Shown here: one piece after another, positions 6,718 to 23,011 of the stretch
How positions within the stretch are numbered: position 1 is the first letter of the stretch
How the letters are laid out: each line of letters opens with the position of its first letter
Assembly: GCA_000165345.1 (NCBI GenBank)
Contig: CM000433.1
Location: 256,001-320,000 of the forward strand
Reading direction: 5' to 3'
DNA length: 64,000 nucleotides
Program-made: the position numbers and the translations under genes
Notes under the pieces: model-generated
The model's database searches: none
Told to the model about the DNA's origin: nothing
The model's input: the letters and a program-made list of their open reading frames with translations, nothing else

Positions 6718-8052
6718 ATGACCGAAAATCAAGGATATAAGCAAGACATTTTGAGTAGTAGTACTCCAAATATGTCTAAAGAAAATAAAAATGAAAAGAT
6801 AAACACTACTTTTGACGCAGATCAAGATAATAGCACAAAGCCAATTATTGAAAAAATTCCATTACACACAGAAGCTGAATACAATTGCTGTGAAGATGTT
6901 AAAGTTAAAAATAATGCTGACTACCCAATTAGAGAGCATAATGGCGTAAATAACTCTCATAATGTTTCAGAGTATGCAGTTCAAGGAGAAGTTTATTCTT
7001 GCATGGAACCATTAGTTTACGATAAAAACAACAACAACACTATTGTTCTTGTTACTGGAGCAACGGGATTTATTGCATCACATATTGTGGAGCGATTGTT
7101 GCTTAGAGGATATAAAGTTCGTGCAACAACAAGATCGAAAAATAGCCAAAATTCGGACTCTTTATTAAATTTCCATTTTGCTGATGAGAATTTAATGCTT
7201 TATGAAGCAGATTTATTAAATAGTGAATGCTGGAAAGAGTTGGTTAAGGGATGTAGAATTGTGATTCATTGCGCGTCTCCATATAAAATGGATTGTAAGG
7301 ATCCATATGAAATTATAGATCCTGCAATTATTGGAACAAAAAATGTTATTCATGCATGCTGTATGTGCGATGATGTAAAGACTGTTGTTTTAACTTCATC
7401 AATTGCCGCGGTTGTAGGGGCTTATAAAGATGGAAAAGTATATTCCGAGATTGATTGGAATGAAGATTGTAATCCTTTGATACACCCATATTTGTACAGT
7501 AAGGTTGAAGCAGAGAAAATAGCTTATAAGGTAGTGGATGAATGCCGTAAGTCACTAAATCTAATAGTTGTGAACCCGGGCATGGTAATTGGTCCTTCTT
7601 ATAGAAGTGATGTAAATCAATCGGTTCAATGGATTTATAATATGATTACTGGTAGAATGCCACTGACTGTAGACTTACAGACAGGCTGGGTTGATGTAAG
7701 AGATGTCGCAGAAATACATATTAGACTTTTCGAGTCTGGCAAATTTTCCGGGAGATTTATTTGTATCGAAGGAATGTATACATTTCTCGATATTTCTAGA
7801 ATGATAAAACACATCTCACCTCAGCTAAACCCACCTAATCATTCCCTTCCTAATTTCATAGCCAAAATTATTCTTCCTCTATTCGCTTCAAAAAATGAGA
7901 AAGATTTTTTGAAAACATCATTAGGAAAAAGAATATTACTTAGCAATGGTAGGTTATTATCGCATCTACCTAATTACAAATTTTTGTCGACATTCGAATC
8001 GGTAAAAGATACATGTAATGATTTAACAAACAAGTTCGATATCAAAAAATAA
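6718..8052 (+). CDS. NAD(P)-dependent epimerase/dehydratase (extended SDR; cinnamoyl-CoA reductase / 3-beta-HSD-like ketoreductase) with an N-terminal extension of about 100 aa.
   Basis: Rossmann motif VLVTGATGFIASHIVERLL and the catalytic YSKVEAEK (YxxxK) motif. Overall length fits the family. Confidence 0.7.
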   Translation: MTENQGYKQDILSSSTPNMSKENKNEKINTTFDADQDNSTKPIIEKIPLHTEAEYNCCEDVKVKNNADYPIREHNGVNNSHNVSEYAVQGEVYSCMEPLVYDKNNNNTIVLVTGATGFIASHIVERLLLRGYKVRATTRSKNSQNSDSLLNFHFADENLMLYEADLLNSECWKELVKGCRIVIHCASPYKMDCKDPYEIIDPAIIGTKNVIHACCMCDDVKTVVLTSSIAAVVGAYKDGKVYSEIDWNEDCNPLIHPYLYSKVEAEKIAYKVVDECRKSLNLIVVNPGMVIGPSYRSDVNQSVQWIYNMITGRMPLTVDLQTGWVDVRDVAEIHIRLFESGKFSGRFICIEGMYTFLDISRMIKHISPQLNPPNHSLPNFIAKIILPLFASKNEKDFLKTSLGKRILLSNGRLLSHLPNYKFLSTFESVKDTCNDLTNKFDIKK

Positions 8053-8092
8053 AATTGAAATGATCTAGATATATTATTAGCTATTTCTACAA

Positions 8093-9253
8093 CTAGAGTC
8101 CTTTGCCTTCAAGGCTAATTTTCATTGCATGCTTAGATCTGTTCCTAGTGCGACTACTTCTGTTAATGCTAATATTTCCAATCGACTTATCTGTAAATGT
8201 GCTTGCATTGTGCTCTATACTTGAGTTATCGTTTTGCGGGATTACCTTGAAGTTATAGCCAGTATTAATTGGGATTCTCGCCGTTCTGGGTTCAATATGG
8301 AATGAACTTTTTTTAGAAGTTGACTCATTATTGTTAGATTTAATTTGTGATTTCAGGCTTTCAGGTGTAATTGGAACTTTATCAATTGTTTCCAAGGATG
8401 AGGGCCTATCTTTAGAAATAAGTCTCACCCAGCGTTGTATTAGCGTTCTTATAATTTGTCTATTCTCAATGGTCTCAGCAGAATTTTTCCAAAGTTTACA
8501 CAAAGTTTTTCCTAATTCTGTAGAGGTTATATCTTCTTCTCCCAAAGGAATGTTGCTTATTAGTTTTAAAATTTTATTTCGTATTGATAGGTTTGGAAGA
8601 GTGCCGTCTTTAAAAGGCGAAAGCCATTGACTTAGAACATCGAGCACCCCCTCAGAAATAAAGTAATTCGATAGGTTATTCATCGATACTCTTTTACAAA
8701 CTTCATCAATCATTTTCAGTTTTGAAATTGCAACTTTTCCATCAGAATAAGCAATTTCATCCTTATTAGCTGCATCTTTCATTAGTTGAATAAATTCCCT
8801 AATTTCAGTACGGACTTCCGTTTCAGAAAATTTCCTTCCAAGAGAATTTTTGTGAACATTCAAACTTGTGTCTTCAATAAAGTCATTGCTAATTTTCTCG
8901 TCGCATTCATCGTCTGATGATTTAATTCCTCCCTCGACTCGAATAATATCATCCTCATCAAAATCAGAAGACCCGTCTTCAACTATAAAGTCATCAACAC
9001 GCAAATCATCGTTATTAGGAAGAACAAATTTGTTATTTTTTTCATCATTTACATGAATTTGAGTGAAATGTTTTTTAATCTTTCTTTTTTTCCTTTTAAC
9101 TTCATGTAAGTTTTTGGTTTCTTGTTCTTTTTCCGGAAAAGTGTTGGAATTAAATTGCTCTGAAGTTACTAATTCAAGATCTATAATTGATTCACCAATT
9201 CTGTTCGTTCTATTGTTAGATATTCCGGAGTCGAATTCGTTAGTTTCAACCAT
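8093..9253 (-). CDS. IWS1: IWS1/Spn1 transcription elongation factor (TFIIS N-terminal-like domain).
   Basis: SEGVLDVLSQWLSPFKDGTLPNLSIRNKILKLISNIP...LGKTLCKLWKNSAETIENRQIIRTLIQRW matches the conserved IWS1 core (LevL..WL.PLPDGSLP.L.IR..IL..L..Lp...). Acidic and basic N-terminal region as in IWS1. Confidence 0.75.
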   Translation of the reverse strand: MVETNEFDSGISNNRTNRIGESIIDLELVTSEQFNSNTFPEKEQETKNLHEVKRKKRKIKKHFTQIHVNDEKNNKFVLPNNDDLRVDDFIVEDGSSDFDEDDIIRVEGGIKSSDDECDEKISNDFIEDTSLNVHKNSLGRKFSETEVRTEIREFIQLMKDAANKDEIAYSDGKVAISKLKMIDEVCKRVSMNNLSNYFISEGVLDVLSQWLSPFKDGTLPNLSIRNKILKLISNIPLGEEDITSTELGKTLCKLWKNSAETIENRQIIRTLIQRWVRLISKDRPSSLETIDKVPITPESLKSQIKSNNNESTSKKSSFHIEPRTARIPINTGYNFKVIPQNDNSSIEHNASTFTDKSIGNISINRSSRTRNRSKHAMKISLEGKGL

Positions 9254-9538
9254 AGGAAAAAAACAATTTTTAATGGCATTCGCCCGCTATGAATTTTAAG
9301 GAATAATTATTTATTAACAATTAAAAAAAAAGTCATTTTGGGGAAAGGAAAGGGCAGTTAATTAAGAATTATATCTTTTAGTTAACTCAGGAATCTGCTT
9401 CTAAAGGCTAAATTCAAGTTTTAGTCATTTTTGACTACCAGAGAACTAGGGTAACTCCAATTAATATTCTTGATCATCTGGTTAATTAATATGCGAATCT
9501 ATTTCAAAACAACTATAAATTGAAATAAAGTTTTTATC

Positions 9539-13263: not shown

Positions 13264-15752
13264 ATGCAGAAAAAGGATAATACTAATTTGTTCAGCTACA
13301 AAAAAATTAGGAGGAAGACTTTTAAAAAAGACAACAGTGGCTGTAATTACAAGCCCACAAACTTTTTACCAAATAGCTGTATTAGAGGTGATAGGAAAAC
13401 AATTCTATGCGTTGCAGAAAAAAATTCTGTTGCAAAAGAAATTGCTAATATTCTCTGCCCAGAATTTCAATCACCAAATAAATTGAAGAGCAAAAGTAAG
13501 ACAAATGTTGCGTTATACTTCCCTTATGAATTTTGTGGGGATGAGTGTAACATGATAGTTACATCAGTAAGAGGCCATTTGAAGCAACTAGGATTTGCAT
13601 CAAAATATTCAGACTGGGGTTCGGTAAACCCTGTTGTGCTGTTGGATCTATCTACGCCAGTTATTAGTTCAATTTTACCTGACTGTATGGGAATTGCAGA
13701 TAACTTAACATATTTTTCAAAAATATCATCTTATTTGATTCTATGGTTAGATTGCGATAGGGAGGGCGAGAATATTGCATTCGAAGTACTAAGTATTTGT
13801 TTAAACTCGAACAAAAACCTGATTACTTTTAGGGCTCATTTTTCAGCGATTACTAAATTTGAGATTAACAATGCAATGAAAAAACTATCATTTCCCAATC
13901 GTGCATTAAGCGATGCTGTCGAGGCTAGAAAAGAAATAGACTTAAGAGTAGGGTCTTCCTTTACGAGGTTTTTAACTCTGAGGTATAGTAGGCTATTCCC
14001 GATTCCAGAACGCACACTTAGCTATGGAACATGCCAATTCCCTACTCTTGGATTCGTTGTAAGCAGATATAAAAAGATTATTAATTTTAGAGAGGAAGAT
14101 GAGTGGACGATCACATTGGAAGTTAAGATGAAGATTTATGAAGGGAATAACAAAGAAATGTCGAACGTAATTTTTGAATGGGAAAGAGGTAAACTTTTTG
14201 ATAACTTATTTACATTTATTATATATGAAACTTGCATAGAAAATTCAAATGCAAGAATTAAAGAAATAGTTAATAACAAGATCTTGAAAAGAAAACCCTT
14301 ACCACTTAATACAGTTGAAATGACAAAAATTGCATCTGATAAGTTAAAATTTTCTCCTATTAAGTGCATTAATATTGCAGAAAATCTTTATAGAAAAGGT
14401 TACATTTCATATCCAAGAACAGAAACAAATAGTTTTTCGGACAGCATTGATATCTCAAAATATATAAAAGAGCAAGAAAAAAGTAGCATATTCGGATCAT
14501 TTGCAAACGAGTTGTTGTATTTAAACAGTTTTTCAGTACCGAGAAAAGGCTGTAAAGATGATGGTTCTCACCCGCCAATCCATCCTGTAAAATGTTTGAA
14601 TAAGGAACAAGCTTCTTCAAATGAAGAATGGTTGTTATACGAGCTTATTACACGTCACTTTTTGTCCTCATGCTCAGAAGATGCTGTAATTATGGAAACA
14701 ATCGTTAAAGTTGATATTTCAGGCGAGACTTTCAAGACTAAAGGAACCGTAAGTTAATTAATTCAATCATCACACTAATTAATTTCTATTAGGTTATAAT
14801 AGAAGAGAATTGGCTAAAGATATACTATCCATTTGAAAGAATAAAAACAAAGATATTACCAGCATTTAATCTTGGTAATTTAGCCTTTCCATACAAACTA
14901 TTCCTACGTAAAAGCAAAACAATCCCTCCGACATTACTGAGCGAGGCAGAACTAATTGATTTAATGGATAAGAACGGGATCGGGACTGATGCTACGATGC
15001 ACGAGCACATTGAGAAGATACAAGTCAGACAATATGTTAAGAAAAATTCAAAATCATTACTTTCTCCAACGGCATTAGGAGTTGCTTTATATAATGGATT
15101 TGAACTAATTTCTAGAAAAATGGAATCAAAGATAGATAAAGCTAAACTTATTGGTGAAACGAAGTCGCTTTATTTAAATAATATACCGGCTTGCAACCTA
15201 ATGCATTTTAGAATTAGACAAATAATTGAAAGAAGTATCGAGAAAATAACTTCCGGTGAATATTCTAGAAGTTATGTTGTTGAGCAGATAGCTGCGTTCA
15301 TGAAAAATATATACGAAAAAATGCTCGAATTTATTAGCTATTTGGATTCAGCACTACATGCTTATTTCCCTAAATGGGATGCAAGCATCGTGATGACTAA
15401 TGGAAAGATGGTTAAACAAAATATATCTGAATGCGGGTTTTGCGGGTCTAGCATAAATGTATACGAAGTTGAAAAGAGCTTGAATGGGCTTCCGCCTATT
15501 ACTGAAGCAGAAGGCGATACTATCATTCGCATTTCTAAAGATGCAAAATTAGCAATTTGTAAAAATCAATCGAAAATAGAGTGTAATAGGCCTTTATTTA
15601 TTCCAGATTTTAAATCAATTAATATTACAAATGAATACTGTCAATTTTGTAGATTCAAAAAGATTAAAATTGAAATACAGAACTCAAAAAAAGTTAGCTT
15701 ATGCCTATATTGCTTCAGTAATCTAGAAAAGGGCATATATGCTAAATGCTGA
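13264..15752 (+). CDS. TOP3: DNA topoisomerase III (type IA), two exons: join(13264..14748,14793..15752); 44-nt intron GTAAGT...TTAG.
   Basis: TOPRIM motifs (TILCVAEKNSVAKEIA; LWLDCDREGENIAFEV), the active-site region GYISYPRTETN, and C-terminal zinc-ribbon cysteines. The two track ORFs join in frame through a 44-nt intron. The spliced protein reads ...KTKGT|VIIEENWLKIYYPFE...AELIDLMDKNGIGTDATMHEHI, which restores the conserved topo IA domain order. Confidence 0.85.
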
Positions 15753-19245: not shown

Positions 19246-22065
19246 TCACTCATTAGATTGAGAACTATTTTTATCATTGTTTAATGAGGGCGGTGAAGAA
19301 TAACCAAATTTGACGGAGTCGGAAGTATCTTCGTTAGGAACAAACTTAGAGAATAAAGGCGCAACTTCCGTACCATTTAAGGGGGATAAAGCGAATTTGC
19401 CTTGAGAAGTGCCATTTGTGAGTATTAAGCTTGAACTAATGTATCTTTCATTATTTAAATTTGTAGTTTGATTCATTGTGTTTGAGCTTCCAGGCGCTCT
19501 ATCAAGCTGATCGGATTTATCTTTTATATAATTAGGATTAGATTCAGTTGAATTTAATGAATTGATATTGGTTCCATTGTATTGTGATTGACTTGAGTTC
19601 GAGACATTATTTATAACGTTAGCTGGTGTAGTTGTAGTTGTAGTGTACTTTTTGAAAATGTGTTGATTTTGTAATAAGTCTGTTTGCTTTTCTGACCTTT
19701 TATCTGTTGCATTATTAGATTGATTGATTCTATTTTTTGCATCAGAGTTGTTATCGTAAGTTTTATTCGTTTCCTTAGTCGCTTCAGGAGAAGTAGTATT
19801 TAATAACTTTTTTTGGGCTGGAATAATTAAATTTGAGTCATCATTTAACTGGGTGTTAGTAGGCTGTAATCTATTATTATTTTGAGATAAAAGCATTAAA
19901 GTATTTGAAAGCGAGCTGTTAATGCTAGCTGTGGTGGCGGTTGTTGTTGTAGTGGTAGTGGTAGTAGTTGTGGTAGTAGTTGTGGTAGTAGTTGTGGTAG
20001 TAGTTGTGGTAGTGGTAGTAGTAGTAGTAGTTGTTGTTGTTGTAGACGTTGTATAATATGGCTTAAAGAATTCCTTTTTTGGTAGGAAAGAAATATTGTT
20101 TAGATCTATTTGGTTAAAAAGAGATGATTTACTAGCTTTTTGAGAACTGTTTGTATTCTCTCTGAGCCTCCTATTCACAGATGCAATTTTGCCAACATTG
20201 GAAGCGTTCAAAAATAGGTTTGCTTCAGTAGTAGTAGTGGTTGTTGTGGTAGTAGTAGTTGTGGTAGTAGTAGTTGTTGTGGTAGTAGTAGTAGTAGTAG
20301 TTGTTGTTGTTGTTGTCGTAGTTGTAGTTGTTGTGGTAGTAGTTGTTGTGGTAGTAGTAGTTGTTGTGGTAGTTGTAGTAGTTGTGGTAGTTGTAGTAGT
20401 TGTGGTAGTAGTAGTTGTTGTGTAATATGGCTTAAAGAATTCCTTTTTTGGTAGGAAAGGAATATTGTTTAGATCCATTGGATTTATAAATGTTGATTTT
20501 ACAGTTTCTTGTGGGCTATTAGGACTNNNTNNNTANNNTNNNNNTTNTNNGANGCANTAGNANNANNNNNNGATANNNNNANNNNTNNNNNNAGNATNNN
20601 CNNNNNGNNGNNNTNGNNNNNGNNNNNGTANTNNNTNGNTNNNTNNNTAGNGGTGAANNGAGNANTGGTANTNGTGGTAGTAGNTGTNNTTGNGGNACGG
20701 TTGTAGNANTTNTNGTGGTGAGNNGTNNNANNTNNANNAGTAGNNNNGGTAGTANNNNNNNTTGNANNGTNTNGNANTANTAANGTTNNGNTANNGAANT
20801 ANNANTAGNTNTNNTAGTNNTAGTAGTAGTAGTAGTTGTTGTTGTTGTTGTGGTANTAGTAGGTAGTTGNTGNNGTTGTGGNAGTAGTAGTTGTNGTGGT
20901 GGTAGNAGTTGTTGNTGTTGTGGTAGTTGTAGTAGTTGTTGTGGTAGNTGTAGTAGTTGTGGTAGTAGTTGTAGTAGTAGTTGTAGTTGTGTAATATGGC
21001 TTAAATGGGATTCAAAAATTTTTCTTTCATTTGGAAAAATGGATTGTTTAAATCTATNGGAAGAAAAAAGTTTGGTTTTGCAATTTCCTGCGATGAATTT
21101 GAATTGATTTGTGAAACTTCATTGCTTGCTGTGATACCTAAACTTGGCGAGTTCAAAGCTAGACTTTCTGCAGTGGTAGTAGTTGTGGTAGTTGTTGTTG
21201 TTGTGGTGGTAGTAGTTGTGGTAGTGGTAGTTGTTGTTGTTGTGGTAGTGGTAGTNGTNGTTGTTGTGGTAGTGGTAGTTGTAGTAGTTGTTGTTGTGGT
21301 AGTAGTAGTAGTTGTTGTNGTNGTNGTTGTTGTGGTAGTGTAGTGGNTAGTTGTTGTAGTGTGGTGGGTAGTTGTGNTGGTAGTAGTAGTTGTGGTAGTG
21401 GTAGTAGTAGTTGTGGTAGTGGTAGTAGTAGTTGTAGTTGTTGTTGTGGTGGTAGTAGTAGTAGTTGTTGTTGTTGTCGTGGTTGTGGTAGTTGTAGTTG
21501 TTGTTGTGGTGGTAGTAGTAGTTGTAGTAGTTGTAGTTGTGGTTGTGGTAGTTGTAGTTGTTGTGGTAGTTGTTGTGGTAGTTGTAGTTGTAGTTGTTGT
21601 TGTGGTTGTGGTAGTAGTAGTTGTTGTGGTTGTGGTGGTAGTTGTTGTTGTGGTAGTTGTTGTCACTGGTCTAAATGGTCTAAAGAATTGTTCTTTCATT
21701 TGGAAAAATGGATGGCTTAAATCCATTGGATTAAAGAACGACGAGGACTTCACAGTCGAATCGTTTCCCAGTAACACTTTAGAACTATCCAAATTAGTGC
21801 TATTTGTATACTCAGTAGATAAAGGCATTCCGGGCAAATCGATGCCACCTATGCCAGTTAATATACCTTCAGAAGCATTTTTACTGTTTGTTACGTAGGA
21901 TTCATCTATATTACTTGGTGTGATTTGATTACCTCCTAACTCACTATTCCATGCCTCTGATTTATTTTCAGAGTATGTGATGGTATTAACTTCACATAAA
22001 GCATACTTTGAAAATTGAAGCAGAAGAAAGAAAAATAAAGTCGAAAAAACCTGTAGAAAATTCAT
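19246..22065 (-). CDS. Mucin-like secreted glycoprotein with modular poly-Thr arrays. It is probably one long gene that the assembly breaks with N's and an apparent frameshift near 21001, leaving track ORFs 21001..22065 and 19246..20478.
   Basis: Signal peptide at the 22065 end (MNFLQVFSTLFFFLLLQFSKYALC). It contains at least four modules of Ser/Asn-rich linker, a conserved motif (NPMDL / DLNN-I-PF(L/F)-KKEFFKPYY, seen 4 times), then 40-170 consecutive Thr from (ACT/ACC/ACA)n. The frame stays open from 20478 upstream into the N region, so the M of MDLNN is internal (F I N P M D L N N). The stop at 21001 sits where KEFFKPYY reads KFLNPI*, a 1-nt frame slip relative to the other copies. Confidence 0.6.
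19930..21665 (-). repeat. (ACN)n trinucleotide coding minisatellite encoding poly-Thr. Blocks at about 19930-20052, 20225-20421, 20527-20990 (N-rich) and 21172-21665.
   Basis: The plus strand reads (GTA/GTG/GTT)n, which is why the track shows spurious poly-Val and Cys/Gly/Ser ORFs. There is 3-nt periodicity with higher-order GGTAGT/AGTTGT units. Ambiguous bases occur at 20527..21377. Confidence 0.85.
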
Positions 22066-22258
22066 TCGAATTACTAAACTTCTAATAAATAAAGAATGTA
22101 AACAGTATTATTTGTTTTTTTGGAATCTGGTGGTGTGTATGTTATAAAATTATCACATCACAAAAATAACATATTCTCGAAATAGAGTAGTTTTGACATC
22201 TTTAAAGTCAACTTAAATCGAGACCGCGCAAGATTTTTTTTTTATTTATTTATTTATT

Positions 22259-23011
22259 ATGAGGAGACTACAATCATTCAAGACACCATCAAGGTTAAAT
22301 GAAAAGTTAAAGTTCTCAAACAAGAGCAATAGCATTAACGATGCTACGATAAACAACAGCACAAAATTTGTTCCAAATATAAGTGCGTTCGATTCTAACG
22401 AAGTTTTAAATAACAGCGCTCAAACAAATGATATTTCATTAAGAAATATAAAGTTTGACGAGAAGTCTGAACTGGAAGAGGTTGAACGGACTAATAGTTT
22501 GCAAAGCTTTGATTTGCCTTCAATAAAGGCTATTAAAAGATTTGAAGCTTTAAATAAATCAGGAAAACAAATTTTAATTTACGATCAGTCCAATAATATT
22601 TCTGTTGAGCCAACAATTGACAACCGAACCGTAGGTGTCTGCAATCATATTTCTGAATCTGGGATCGAAAATGTTCACAACAAATTAGAAGGCTGGTCTG
22701 TGTTTCAATTACCCAAATATATGCCTGAAAGTAAAAAAAACTACTGCGAGATTAGCAAAAATTCTACTCCTACATTACTACACGACACTCCCTCAGGTTC
22801 TATTGGTAAGCTAATATTTAGGCAAGACGGTAATATAGATTTATATTTAAATTCAAGCAAAGACAAAGAATGTACCTCGTTCAAAATAGACTGTATATCG
22901 AAAGACAATTCAGAGCAATTTATTGCTGCATTTTCAAAAATAAATGAACTAATTAACCTCGGGAAATGTGATTCATTATTAATTGCTACCCCTAAAATAC
23001 AAAAATATTAG
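22259..23011 (+). CDS. Hypothetical protein, 250 aa. Weak resemblance of the C-terminus to RNA polymerase III subunit RPC4/C53.
   Basis: ATG at 22259 preceded by a T-rich tract. The segment GSIGKLIFRQDGNIDLYL...SEQFIAAFSKINELINLGK is reminiscent of the Rpc4 C-terminal (iGkL.v.kSGk) region. This is a low-confidence assignment. Confidence 0.4.
   Translation: MRRLQSFKTPSRLNEKLKFSNKSNSINDATINNSTKFVPNISAFDSNEVLNNSAQTNDISLRNIKFDEKSELEEVERTNSLQSFDLPSIKAIKRFEALNKSGKQILIYDQSNNISVEPTIDNRTVGVCNHISESGIENVHNKLEGWSVFQLPKYMPESKKNYCEISKNSTPTLLHDTPSGSIGKLIFRQDGNIDLYLNSSKDKECTSFKIDCISKDNSEQFIAAFSKINELINLGKCDSLLIATPKIQKY

What the first reader, a model, noticed from the sequence alone, without database searches (positions are those of the whole stretch)
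19246..22065. Modular poly-threonine mucin gene, probably one long ORF fragmented by N's and a 1-nt frame slip
Two track ORFs and an N-riddled stretch between them all read, on the minus strand, as one protein. It has a signal peptide at the 22065 end, followed by repeated modules of Ser/Asn-rich linker, a conserved roughly 16-aa motif (NPMDL... / DLNN(I)PF(L/F)(P/Q)(K/M)KE(F/Q)F(K/R)P(Y/F)Y, four copies), then 40 to 170 uninterrupted Thr. The M that opens ORF 19246..20478 is the internal Met of FINPMDLNN, and the frame stays open upstream into the N region. The stop at 21001 is a 1-nt slip of KEFFKPYY into KFLNPI*. Such heavily O-glycosylatable poly-Thr surface mucins are typical of Cryptosporidium-like parasites, where they are attachment and invasion ligands and often vary in length. 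The conserved motif before each Thr block is unusual; it may mark a processing or cleavage site, or the site where O-glycosylation starts.
Basis: partly seen in the sequence, partly recalled or inferred. Interest (0 to 1): 0.65.

Follow-up and report, generated by a model that had tools for sequence, protein, structure and literature searches.

The report
Split Cryptosporidium female-stage mucin gene
The two reading frames and the N-filled stretch between them are one known Cryptosporidium parvum mucin gene (cgd5_1220 + cgd5_1210, "Muc14") broken by poor base calls; it is switched on in female gametes rather than invasive stages, and carries a conserved, undescribed 25-residue motif before every poly-threonine block.

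Summary
On the minus strand, 19246..22065 reads as one secreted, modular poly-Thr protein. It is interrupted only by sequencing artefacts: an extra C at 21007-21009, which creates the stop at 21001, and several more frame hops inside the N-riddled stretch 20527..20990.

The window is C. parvum chromosome 5. The two ORFs are the legacy models cgd5_1220 and cgd5_1210, called "Muc14". Three gap-free assemblies carry one uninterrupted ORF: CpBGF T2T (1201 aa), GCA_048859185.1 (1237 aa) and C. meleagridis TU1867 (1120 aa).

Each module is a linker, a conserved motif (KS[ST][FL]Fx[PQ][MI]D[LI]NNxPF[LI]xxK[EN]xF..F[KR]P) and then 40-615 Thr. The motif copies are diverged paralogues (60-85% DNA identity). 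They keep the same order in C. meleagridis and also occur in C. ryanae, where the gene had been reported lost.

Published data show both halves are about 400-800-fold female-gamete specific and are detected in oocyst proteomes. The protein has no TM or GPI signal. It is therefore more likely an oocyst-associated structural mucin than an invasion ligand.

The gene, its mucin nature and its indel hypervariability are already known. Only the single-ORF curation, the motif and the C. ryanae orthologue are new. Interest is modest.

The parts
19246..22065 (-). Whole gene: legacy models cgd5_1220 (21001..22065) plus cgd5_1210 (19246..20478), which are one mucin ORF ('Muc14').
   Evidence: Searches give the reading. 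Searches show a continuous ORF in three other assemblies. Searches give the gene identity.
21994..22065 (-). Signal peptide MNFLQVFSTLFFFLLLQFSKYALC, with likely cleavage after ALC.
   Evidence: It is the only 19-aa window with Kyte-Doolittle above 1.6 in the protein. The cleavage site is inferred from the -3/-1 rule and was not computed with SignalP.
21751..21993 (-). N-terminal unique region, Ser/Asn-rich, with no recognisable domain.
   Evidence: No Pfam hit. It is 93% identical to a 106-aa C. hominis fragment.
21664..21750 (-). Motif copy m1: KSSSFFNPMDLSHPFFQMKEQFFRPFRPV.
21172..21663 (-). Thr run 1, about 163 ACN codons with 8 N's. It is a collapsed join of T-run 1 and T-run 2 of the 5-module allele, and module m2 is missing.
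21082..21171 (-). Linker AESLALNSPSLGITASNEVSQINSNSSQEI. This is the linker type without RRLR.
20991..21081 (-). Motif copy m3: AKPNFFLPIDLNNPFFQMKEKFLNPFKPYY. An extra C at 21007-21009 creates a false stop at 21001-21003.
   Evidence: One search aligns it to L002 and C. meleagridis.
20527..20990 (-). Low-quality stretch with 151 N's. It holds a Thr run with at least 5 frame hops and an unreadable linker; in other assemblies that linker is ITAARGAESNFAISTISANASKNRRLRE.
20422..20502 (-). Motif copy m4: VKSTFINPMDLNNIPFLPKKEFFKPYY. The ATG of the legacy model cgd5_1210 (20478) is its internal Met.
20227..20421 (-). Thr run of 65 codons.
20134..20226 (-). Linker EANLFLNASNVGKIASVNRRLRENTNSSQKA, with the RRLR dibasic site at 20161..20172.
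20053..20133 (-). Motif copy m5: SKSSLFNQIDLNNISFLPKKEFFKPYY.
   Evidence: The same module is found in C. hominis, C. meleagridis and C. ubiquitum.
19939..20052 (-). Thr run of about 38 codons (TTSTTT...TTATT).
19249..19938 (-). C-terminal unique region of about 228 aa. It is hydrophilic and predicted disordered. Its last ~45 aa (GKFALSPLNGTEVAPLFSKFVPNEDTSDSVKFGYSSPP) are conserved as far as C. ubiquitum and recognisable in C. ryanae.
   Evidence: AF2 mean pLDDT is 44.5. There is no TM or GPI-like hydrophobic tail.

Best explanation
SHOWN. 19246..22065(-) is a single protein-coding gene of C. parvum chromosome 5. It is annotated in the 2004 Iowa II reference as two genes, cgd5_1220 and cgd5_1210, and is listed in the literature as mucin 'Muc14'. 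The split is an artefact. A one-base insertion at 21007-21009 and a stretch of very poor base calls (151 N's, several indels) lie inside trinucleotide (ACN) repeats that also collapsed in assembly.

The true product is about 1,100-1,240 aa and 50-63% Thr. It consists of a signal peptide, an ~80-aa unique region between the signal peptide and m1, 3-5 modules of [~30-aa linker + ~27-aa conserved aromatic motif + 40-615 Thr], and a 228-aa hydrophilic tail without a membrane anchor.

SHOWN BY PUBLISHED DATA. Both halves are transcribed together, almost exclusively in female gametes (macrogamonts). Peptides of both halves are present in oocyst material.

INFERRED. The protein is made in the female and routed through the secretory pathway, most likely via wall-forming bodies. 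Its Thr runs are densely O-GalNAc-glycosylated into stiff, protease-resistant, hydrated rods. It is then deposited in or under the oocyst wall, in the fibrillar glycoprotein layer, in sporozoite tethers or in the glycocalyx.

The short, unglycosylated, F/P/D-rich motif at the N-terminal edge of every rod is the part under purifying selection. It most plausibly acts as a 'sticker' between mucin 'spacers', that is, a docking or self-association site that ties the rods into a network or to another wall protein. The ACN repeats make the gene prone to unequal recombination, which explains the variation in length and module number.
For: Single ORF:
- Uninterrupted ORFs occur in CpBGF (L011 6205..9810, 1201 aa), GCA_048859185.1 (L002, 1237 aa) and C. 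meleagridis TU1867 (L006 5280..8642, 1120 aa).
- The extra C is shown by alignment and the frame hopping in the N stretch.
- Contigs of the C. hominis TU502, C. meleagridis UKMEL1, C. ubiquitum and C. ryanae assemblies and Logan run-assembly contigs of C. parvum end inside this gene.

Identity:
- The neighbours are cgd5_1200 and cpbgf_5001230.
- Muc14 = cgd5_1210. It is described as repetitive and as an INDEL hotspot.

Female expression:
- Tandel 2019 supplement, log2 values for asexual, female in vitro and female in vivo: cgd5_1210 3.5, 12.1, 12.9; cgd5_1220 3.5, 13.2, 13.9. For comparison COWP1 goes 5.2 to 16.1.
- 85.9% of the expression signal is at 48 h.
- cpbgf_5001210 is classed as 'female exclusive' and lies on a multi-gene long-read transcript.
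- A review places mucins in the second wave of female expression.

Protein: both halves are quantified in excysted oocyst material.

No anchor, one Cys, no Pfam domain, disordered tail.

Motif constraint:
- The same five modules occur in the same order in C. meleagridis.
- The core is retained in C. ryanae (PIDINNIPFI.NKNLFF), although the rest of the protein is barely alignable there (E 1.4e-4).
Against: - No localisation, glycosylation or knockout data for this protein were found in the searchable library.
- The wall or tether destination and the 'sticker' role are inference only.
- Detection in excysted oocyst lysate does not distinguish wall from sporozoite.
- The Mauzy qPCR shows a small 2-h signal, about 10-50 times the 6-36 h level. 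Some message or role in sporozoites is therefore not excluded.
- Module number is uncertain: 3 in CpBGF and IOWA-ATCC, 4 in this window, 5 in GCA_048859185.1.
Confidence: 0.62

Rival explanations
1. Sporozoite or merozoite surface adhesin. This is the first reader's view: a gp900- or gp40/15-like attachment and invasion ligand with antigenic length variation.
For: - Poly-Thr mucins of Cryptosporidium include proven invasion ligands such as gp900, gp40/15 and Muc4/5.
- The protein is present in excysted oocyst material, which contains sporozoites.
- There is a small 2-h transcript signal.
- The gene is highly indel-polymorphic.
Against: - Transcripts are about 400-800-fold female-specific and near background in sorted asexual stages.
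- Expression peaks at 48 h together with other sexual-stage genes.
- There is no TM domain or GPI-type tail, unlike gp900, which has a single TM (abstract).
- The gene did not occur in the Tandel supplementary file of sporozoite-expressed genes (file 8 had no match).
Confidence: 0.15
2. Polyprotein precursor. The linkers carry a furin/subtilisin-type R-R-L-R site, so the product is cut into separate mucin peptides. Each peptide would begin with about 20 aa plus the motif and end with a Thr run. This is compatible with the best explanation as an additional step.
For: - NRRLRE is conserved in 3 of the 4 inter-run linkers in C. parvum and C. meleagridis.
- It is also found in the C. hominis and C. 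ubiquitum modules.
- From my own knowledge, gp40/15 is made by furin-like cleavage of a precursor.
Against: - The C. ryanae linkers read FFLRES at that position and have no dibasic site.
- The m3 linker lacks the site.
- No proteomic or blot evidence was examined.
Confidence: 0.2
3. Two independent genes (the legacy annotation), or a genuinely frameshifted pseudogene in the Iowa II isolate.
For: - Iowa II, IOWA-ATCC and CpBGF annotations all keep two models.
- IOWA-ATCC DNA also has frameshifts inside the Thr run.
Against: - The CpBGF DNA is one open frame although it is annotated as 783 (partial) + 410 aa.
- The 410-aa model starts at an internal Met of the motif and has no signal peptide.
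- The two halves have near-identical expression profiles.
- The stop at 21001 sits in a region of N's and is absent from two other assemblies.
- The ATCC shifts lie in long-read-error-prone repeats.
Confidence: 0.03

Closest known systems
C. parvum Muc14 (cgd5_1210 / Chro.50263 / cubi_01812), as listed by Liu et al. 2016 (PMC5146892, Table S2)
   Same: It is this gene. The locus, the neighbours and the C-terminal 410 aa are the same.
   Different: - The published entry covers only the 3' third. cgd5_1220 is treated as a separate uncharacterised gene.
- The gene is reported as lost in C. bovis and C. ryanae, yet C. ryanae has a syntenic orthologue.
- No motif has been described.
GP900 (cgd7_4020) and cgd3_720 (Muc11), the other poly-Thr INDEL-hotspot mucins of C. 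parvum
   Same: - They have a signal peptide and very long Thr runs encoded by ACN repeats.
- They show indel hypervariability.
- cgd3_720 shares the 48-h expression peak.
   Different: - GP900 is a micronemal type-I TM protein of invasive stages (abstract). Its Cys-rich domains are from my own knowledge.
- Muc14 has one Cys, which lies in the signal peptide, has no TM, and is female-specific.
- Whether cgd3_720 carries the motif could not be tested.
Toxoplasma gondii CST1, the cyst-wall mucin
   Same: It is a secreted protein whose Thr-rich mucin domain is O-GalNAc-glycosylated and gives a parasite wall its rigidity (abstracts). It is the closest functional analogue for a structural 'wall mucin'.
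   Different: - CST1 has SRS domains and one mucin domain of short tandem repeats.
- It shares no sequence similarity and belongs to a different life stage (the bradyzoite cyst).
Metazoan gel-forming mucins (MUC2, MUC5AC), in which small CysD domains interrupt the PTS domains (own knowledge)
   Same: Long glycosylated PTS stretches are punctuated by small conserved non-glycosylated units that mediate non-covalent cross-links. This is the architecture proposed here.
   Different: - The punctuating unit here is a ~27-aa linear aromatic motif without cysteines.
- There is no vWF-type multimerisation domain.
- This is an analogy only.
COWP family and Eimeria GAM56/82, the classical wall-forming-body cargo
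   Same: - They are female-specific secreted proteins destined for the oocyst wall.
- Their induction is of comparable magnitude: COWP1 log2FC 10.9 and COWP9 5.8, against 8.6 and 9.6 here.
   Different: COWPs are Cys-rich, with a Cys every 10-12 residues. GAMs are Tyr-rich (own knowledge). Muc14 is neither.

Membership tests
Mucin-type secreted O-glycoprotein (PTS-domain protein) | N-terminal signal peptide | tested here: met
   MNFLQVFSTLFFFLLLQFSKYALC is the only hydrophobic segment. SignalP itself was not available.
Mucin-type secreted O-glycoprotein (PTS-domain protein) | Extended Pro/Thr/Ser-rich domains making up a large share of the protein | tested here: met
   Thr makes up 50-63% of the protein, in runs of 41-615 residues.
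Mucin-type secreted O-glycoprotein (PTS-domain protein) | Dense O-linked GalNAc on those domains | not testable with these tools
   Inferred from gp900 and gp40/15 glycoproteomics (PMC5549699 abstract). There are no data for this protein.
Muc14 orthologue group (cgd5_1210) | Sequence identity and a syntenic position between cgd5_1200 (RING/B-box) and cgd5_1230 | tested here: met
   The same synteny holds in C. hominis, C. meleagridis, C. ubiquitum and C. ryanae.
Membrane-anchored invasion mucins (gp900 or gp40/15 type) | TM domain or GPI-anchor signal | tested here: not met
   There is no hydrophobic segment apart from the signal peptide. The last 30 aa have mean KD -1.64.
Membrane-anchored invasion mucins (gp900 or gp40/15 type) | Expression in sporozoites or merozoites | tested here: not met
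   The asexual log2 value is about 3.5 against 12-14 in females, with a 48-h peak. These are published data, not my own experiment.
COWP oocyst wall proteins | Cysteine-rich type I/II repeats | tested here: not met
   There is one Cys in the whole protein, inside the signal peptide. No Pfam hit.
Oocyst wall or wall-forming-body cargo (functional class) | Female-specific expression plus a signal peptide | tested here: met
Oocyst wall or wall-forming-body cargo (functional class) | Localisation to wall-forming bodies or the oocyst wall | not testable with these tools
   The only evidence is detection in whole excysted-oocyst lysate.

The most novel reading that the evidence does not exclude
The ~27-aa aromatic motif (KS[ST][FL]Fx[PQ][MI]D[LI]NNxPF[LI]xxK[EN]xF..F[KR]P) that precedes every poly-Thr run is a new functional element of apicomplexan wall mucins. 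It would be a multivalent docking or self-association site, or a priming site for the O-GalNAc transferases. Its copy number (3-5) and spacing (40-615 Thr) vary between strains by unequal recombination, and this would tune the mechanical or tethering properties of the oocyst.
Probability: 0.25. Interest if true: 0.5.

Novelty: already known. Interest (0 to 1): 0.3.

Why it matters
This is mainly a curation result with knock-on effects. The community reference annotations (Iowa II, IOWA-ATCC and even the T2T CpBGF) still carry two gene models for one ORF. That split has probably produced at least three secondary artefacts:
- two separate orthologue groups for one gene;
- a reported 'loss' of Muc14 in C. 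bovis and C. ryanae;
- inclusion of cpbgf_5001210 among 'polycistronic' transcripts.

Biologically, the result moves one of the three most indel-variable mucins of C. parvum from the 'invasion ligand' class to female-gamete and oocyst biology. The composition of the glycoprotein layer and of the sporozoite tethers there is poorly known. It also gives a defined, conserved, mutable motif to test by CRISPR.

Tried and rejected
- **Motif profile (A1, 13 modules) against 5.8 billion proteins.** 916 candidates, none with E<=10. HMMER's composition filter on poly-Thr proteins is the likely cause, so the question of whether the motif recurs in paralogous mucins remains open.
- **Degenerate motif scan of JGI metagenome contigs.** 104 pattern matches, none confirmed.
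- **Motif regex on six-frame translations of the window and all loci.** It occurs only in this gene.
- **Pfam on the N-terminal region, a module and the C-terminal region.** Nothing.
- **AlphaFold2 of the C-terminal region with 4 orthologues.** Mean pLDDT 44.5 and pTM 0.12, so no fold search was run.
- **Exact-sequence cluster look-ups of the mucin products.** These failed. DNA references carry the stop codon, and hand-pasted poly-Thr lengths were off by 1-3 residues.
- **First guess cgd3_1180, from a T2T paper remark.** Rejected. The neighbours prove chromosome 5.
- **Muc25 (cgd6_40) and AGP1/2 (cgd4_32, cgd7_4330).** Checked and excluded.
- **Dityrosine cross-linking through KPYY.** Considered and down-weighted, because YY is absent from m1 and from the C. 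ryanae modules.
- **Upstream intergenic comparison, C. parvum versus C. meleagridis.** 94% identical throughout, so uninformative for regulatory motifs.
- **Chatterjee 2010, hyperLOPIT and the single-cell atlas.** These could not be read.
Full report
**1. What is in the sequence**

On the minus strand, 22065..19246 reads as follows.
- A hydrophobic N-terminus, MNFLQVFSTLFFFLLLQFSKYALC.
- About 80 Ser/Asn-rich residues.
- Motif copy m1, KSSSFFNPMDLSHPFFQMKEQFFRPFRPV, at 21750..21664.
- About 163 ACN (Thr) codons.
- The linker AESLALNSPSLG...QEI.
- Motif copy m3, AKPNFFLPIDLNNPFFQMKEKFLNPI*, with the stop at 21001-21003.
- A stretch, 20990..20527, that holds 151 of the window's 159 N's.
- ...SPNSPQETVKSTFINPMDLNNIPFLPKKEFFKPYY (m4). 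The ATG at 20478 is its internal Met.
- 65 Thr.
- The linker EANLFLNASNVGKIASVNRRLRENTNSSQKA.
- SKSSLFNQIDLNNISFLPKKEFFKPYY (m5).
- About 38 Thr/Ser/Ala.
- A 228-aa hydrophilic tail ending at 19249, followed by the stop codon at 19246-19248.

The four motif copies are 60-85% identical at DNA level. They are old paralogues, not assembly duplications. TRF sees imperfect ACN arrays with 76-86% matches.

**2. The breaks are artefacts**

At the slip, the window has GAATCCCATTTAAG. A second C. parvum assembly and C. meleagridis have GAAT-CCATTTAAG. Removing one C gives MKEKFLNPFKPYYTTTT, which is the sequence seen elsewhere.

Within the N stretch the Thr frame goes 1->2->1->2->1 and then returns to 0, as expected from a single bad read.

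K-mer chaining shows that the window jumps from nt 602 to nt 1671 of the 5-module allele. Part of T-run 1, module m2 and part of T-run 2 have therefore been lost or collapsed.

**3. Independent assemblies**

The neighbouring 653-aa RING/B-box protein led to syntenic loci.
- GCA_048859185.1 (L002) has one ORF of 1237 aa with five modules, m1-m5.
- The T2T CpBGF assembly (L011) has one uninterrupted ORF of 1201 aa. It is nevertheless still annotated as 783 aa (partial) + 410 aa.
- IOWA-ATCC (L001) is colinear with CpBGF but has indels inside the Thr run.
- C. meleagridis TU1867 (L006 5280..8642) has one ORF of 1120 aa, with the same five modules in the same order.
- Contigs of the C. hominis TU502, C. 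meleagridis UKMEL1, C. ubiquitum and C. ryanae assemblies, and Logan run-assembly contigs of C. parvum, simply end inside the gene.

**4. Identity and prior knowledge**

The flanking proteins are cgd5_1200 (RING finger, PMC2408969) and cpbgf_5001230 / CPATCC_002127. The two ORFs are therefore cgd5_1210 and cgd5_1220.

What the literature says:
- Both are named as 'large repetitive sequences' (PMC4407392).
- cgd5_1210 is a mucin-like INDEL hotspot, together with cgd3_720 and gp900 (PMC9317183).
- It is 'Muc14' = cgd5_1210 / Chro.50263 / cubi01812, absent in C. andersoni (PMC5146892 Table S2).
- It is 'lost' in C. bovis and C. ryanae (PMC7371110).
- No functional study was found.

**5. Stage of expression**

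- Mauzy 2012 qPCR: 85.9% of the cgd5_1210 signal is at 48 h. It sits in a list with cgd3_720, other Thr-mucins and CCp3.
- Tandel 2019 sorted-cell RNA-seq (headers verified), log2 values:

| Gene | asexual | female in vitro | female in vivo | logFC |
|---|---|---|---|---|
| cgd5_1210 | 3.52 | 12.14 | 12.93 | 8.62 |
| cgd5_1220 | 3.55 | 13.18 | 13.94 | 9.63 |
| COWP1 (for comparison) | 5.2 | 16.1 | 15.7 | 10.9 |

- A preprint lists cpbgf_5001210 as female-exclusive and as part of a 'polycistronic' long-read transcript. Its authors acknowledge misannotation as a confounder. Here one mRNA for one ORF is the simpler reading.
- A 2026 review places mucins in the second wave of female gene expression.
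- Both halves are quantified by TMT-MS in excysted oocyst material.

**6. Protein properties**

- Thr makes up 50-63% of the protein, and there are 21-24 N-x-S/T sequons outside the runs.
- There is a single Cys, inside the signal peptide.
- There is no second hydrophobic segment, and the C-terminus is hydrophilic. The protein is therefore secreted and not anchored.
- Pfam finds nothing.
- AF2 of the tail is unconfident, with pLDDT 44.5.

**7. The motif**

An alignment of 13 modules from five species gives this pattern: K-S-[ST]-[FL]-[FIL]-x-[PQ]-[MI]-D-[LI]-[NS]-[NHQ]-(x)-[PS]-F-[LFI]-x-x-K-[EN]-x-[FL]-(0-3)-F-[KRG]-[PQ]. It is followed at once, or after 1-2 residues, by the Thr run.

A profile of the C-terminal tail searched against 1.84 billion representatives found only one further relative, P0013 (E 1.4e-4). 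P0013 is a 236-aa gene model in C. ryanae (VHLK02000023.1) that lies next to the same RING/RRM/TopoIII neighbours.

Upstream of its annotated Met the frame stays open to the contig end. It contains ...LFFGQP-T(~90)-GESGFFLRESNAQGGKDFEVKSSSFLYPIDINNIPFIANKNLFFGQP-T(~85)-GESGFFLRES...KSSSFLHPIDINNIPFITNKNLFFKQPP-T8.

The gene and the motif therefore exist in the C. bovis/ryanae lineage, and the reported loss is an annotation artefact. The motif core survives where the rest of the protein has diverged almost beyond detection. That is the main argument that the motif is functional.

The KPYY dipeptide and the RRLRE site of the linkers are not conserved there.

**8. Interpretation**

Shown: this is one gene, it is secreted and unanchored, it is female-specific, it is present in oocysts, its motif is under constraint, and its repeat length and module number are variable.

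Inferred: it is a structural mucin delivered by the macrogamont to the oocyst (the wall's glycoprotein layer, sporozoite tethers or glycocalyx). Its O-glycosylated Thr rods act as spacers and the aromatic motifs act as interaction sites.

Processing at RRLR is a possible add-on (0.2). Two genes or a pseudogene is very unlikely (0.03).

**9. Unresolved**

- Module number differs between C. parvum assemblies: 3, 4 or 5. IOWA-ATCC and CpBGF agree with each other and replace m2/m3 with a 615-residue Thr run that contains internal ~340-363-nt duplications. The 2004 Iowa II sequence clearly contains m3. Real polymorphism cannot be separated from assembly error without reads.
- Whether the motif recurs in other mucins could not be tested.

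**10. Verdict**

The structural interpretation is right and the functional guess is probably wrong. The gene is already known. The added value is curation (one ORF, a C. ryanae orthologue) plus a conserved motif worth testing. Interest is 0.3.

Noticed in passing
window 13264..14757 (+) and 14964..15752 (+): The Toprim/Topoisom_bac (topoisomerase III-like) gene appears as two ORFs of 497 and 262 aa. The annotations of IOWA-ATCC and CpBGF give one 814-aa product over the same span. This is either a spliced gene or another split model.
   Followed up: no
window 22259..23011 (+), and the intergenic region 22066..22258: cgd5_1230 (250 aa) is transcribed divergently from the mucin across only 193 bp. 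It is itself female-upregulated (log2 5.4, 8.6, 9.1 in the Tandel supplement). It has a sub-threshold Pfam RNA_pol_Rpc4 match (E 1.5e-4, 22.5 bits against a 26.5 cut-off). The intergenic region is 94% identical to C. meleagridis.
   Followed up: partly
L012 1..1665 (C. ryanae VHLK02000023.1): This is a syntenic orthologue of Muc14 with at least two motif + poly-Thr modules, and its ORF runs off the contig end. [quoted passage not shown]
   Followed up: yes
L011 6205..9810 (CpBGF CP141122.1): The T2T reference encodes one uninterrupted 1201-aa ORF but keeps two legacy-compatible gene models (783 aa partial + 410 aa). The 'polycistronic transcript' containing cpbgf_5001210 (PMC11761812) is probably this single mRNA.
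   Followed up: partly
L011 about 8000..9400 versus L002 12143..15856: The 615-residue first Thr run of CpBGF contains segments repeated 2-3 times at ~340-363-nt spacing. Those segments are single-copy in GCA_048859185.1, and the run lacks modules m2 and m3. Module number is 3, 4 or 5 depending on the C. parvum assembly.
   Followed up: partly
L010 (ENA metagenome scaffold, C. hominis-like) and L009 (TU502): In C. hominis the module in front of m5 has an m2-type linker (GRNENNRISIASINSSKNRRLRENPNSPQEIVKST). C. parvum and C. meleagridis have the m4-type (ITAARGAESNFAIS...) at that place. This suggests module shuffling or loss between species.
   Followed up: no
Mauzy et al. 2012, supplementary table S6 (PMC3305300): cgd5_1210 is described there as a CaM-dependent protein kinase. 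This is evidently a row shift in the table, because the sequence has no kinase domain.
   Followed up: no
window 21082..21171 (-): Iowa II reads AESLALNS where GCA_048859185.1 and C. meleagridis read AESLVLNL (two nucleotide differences, GCT/GTT and TCG/TTG). These are either base-call errors near the low-quality zone or real SNPs.
   Followed up: no
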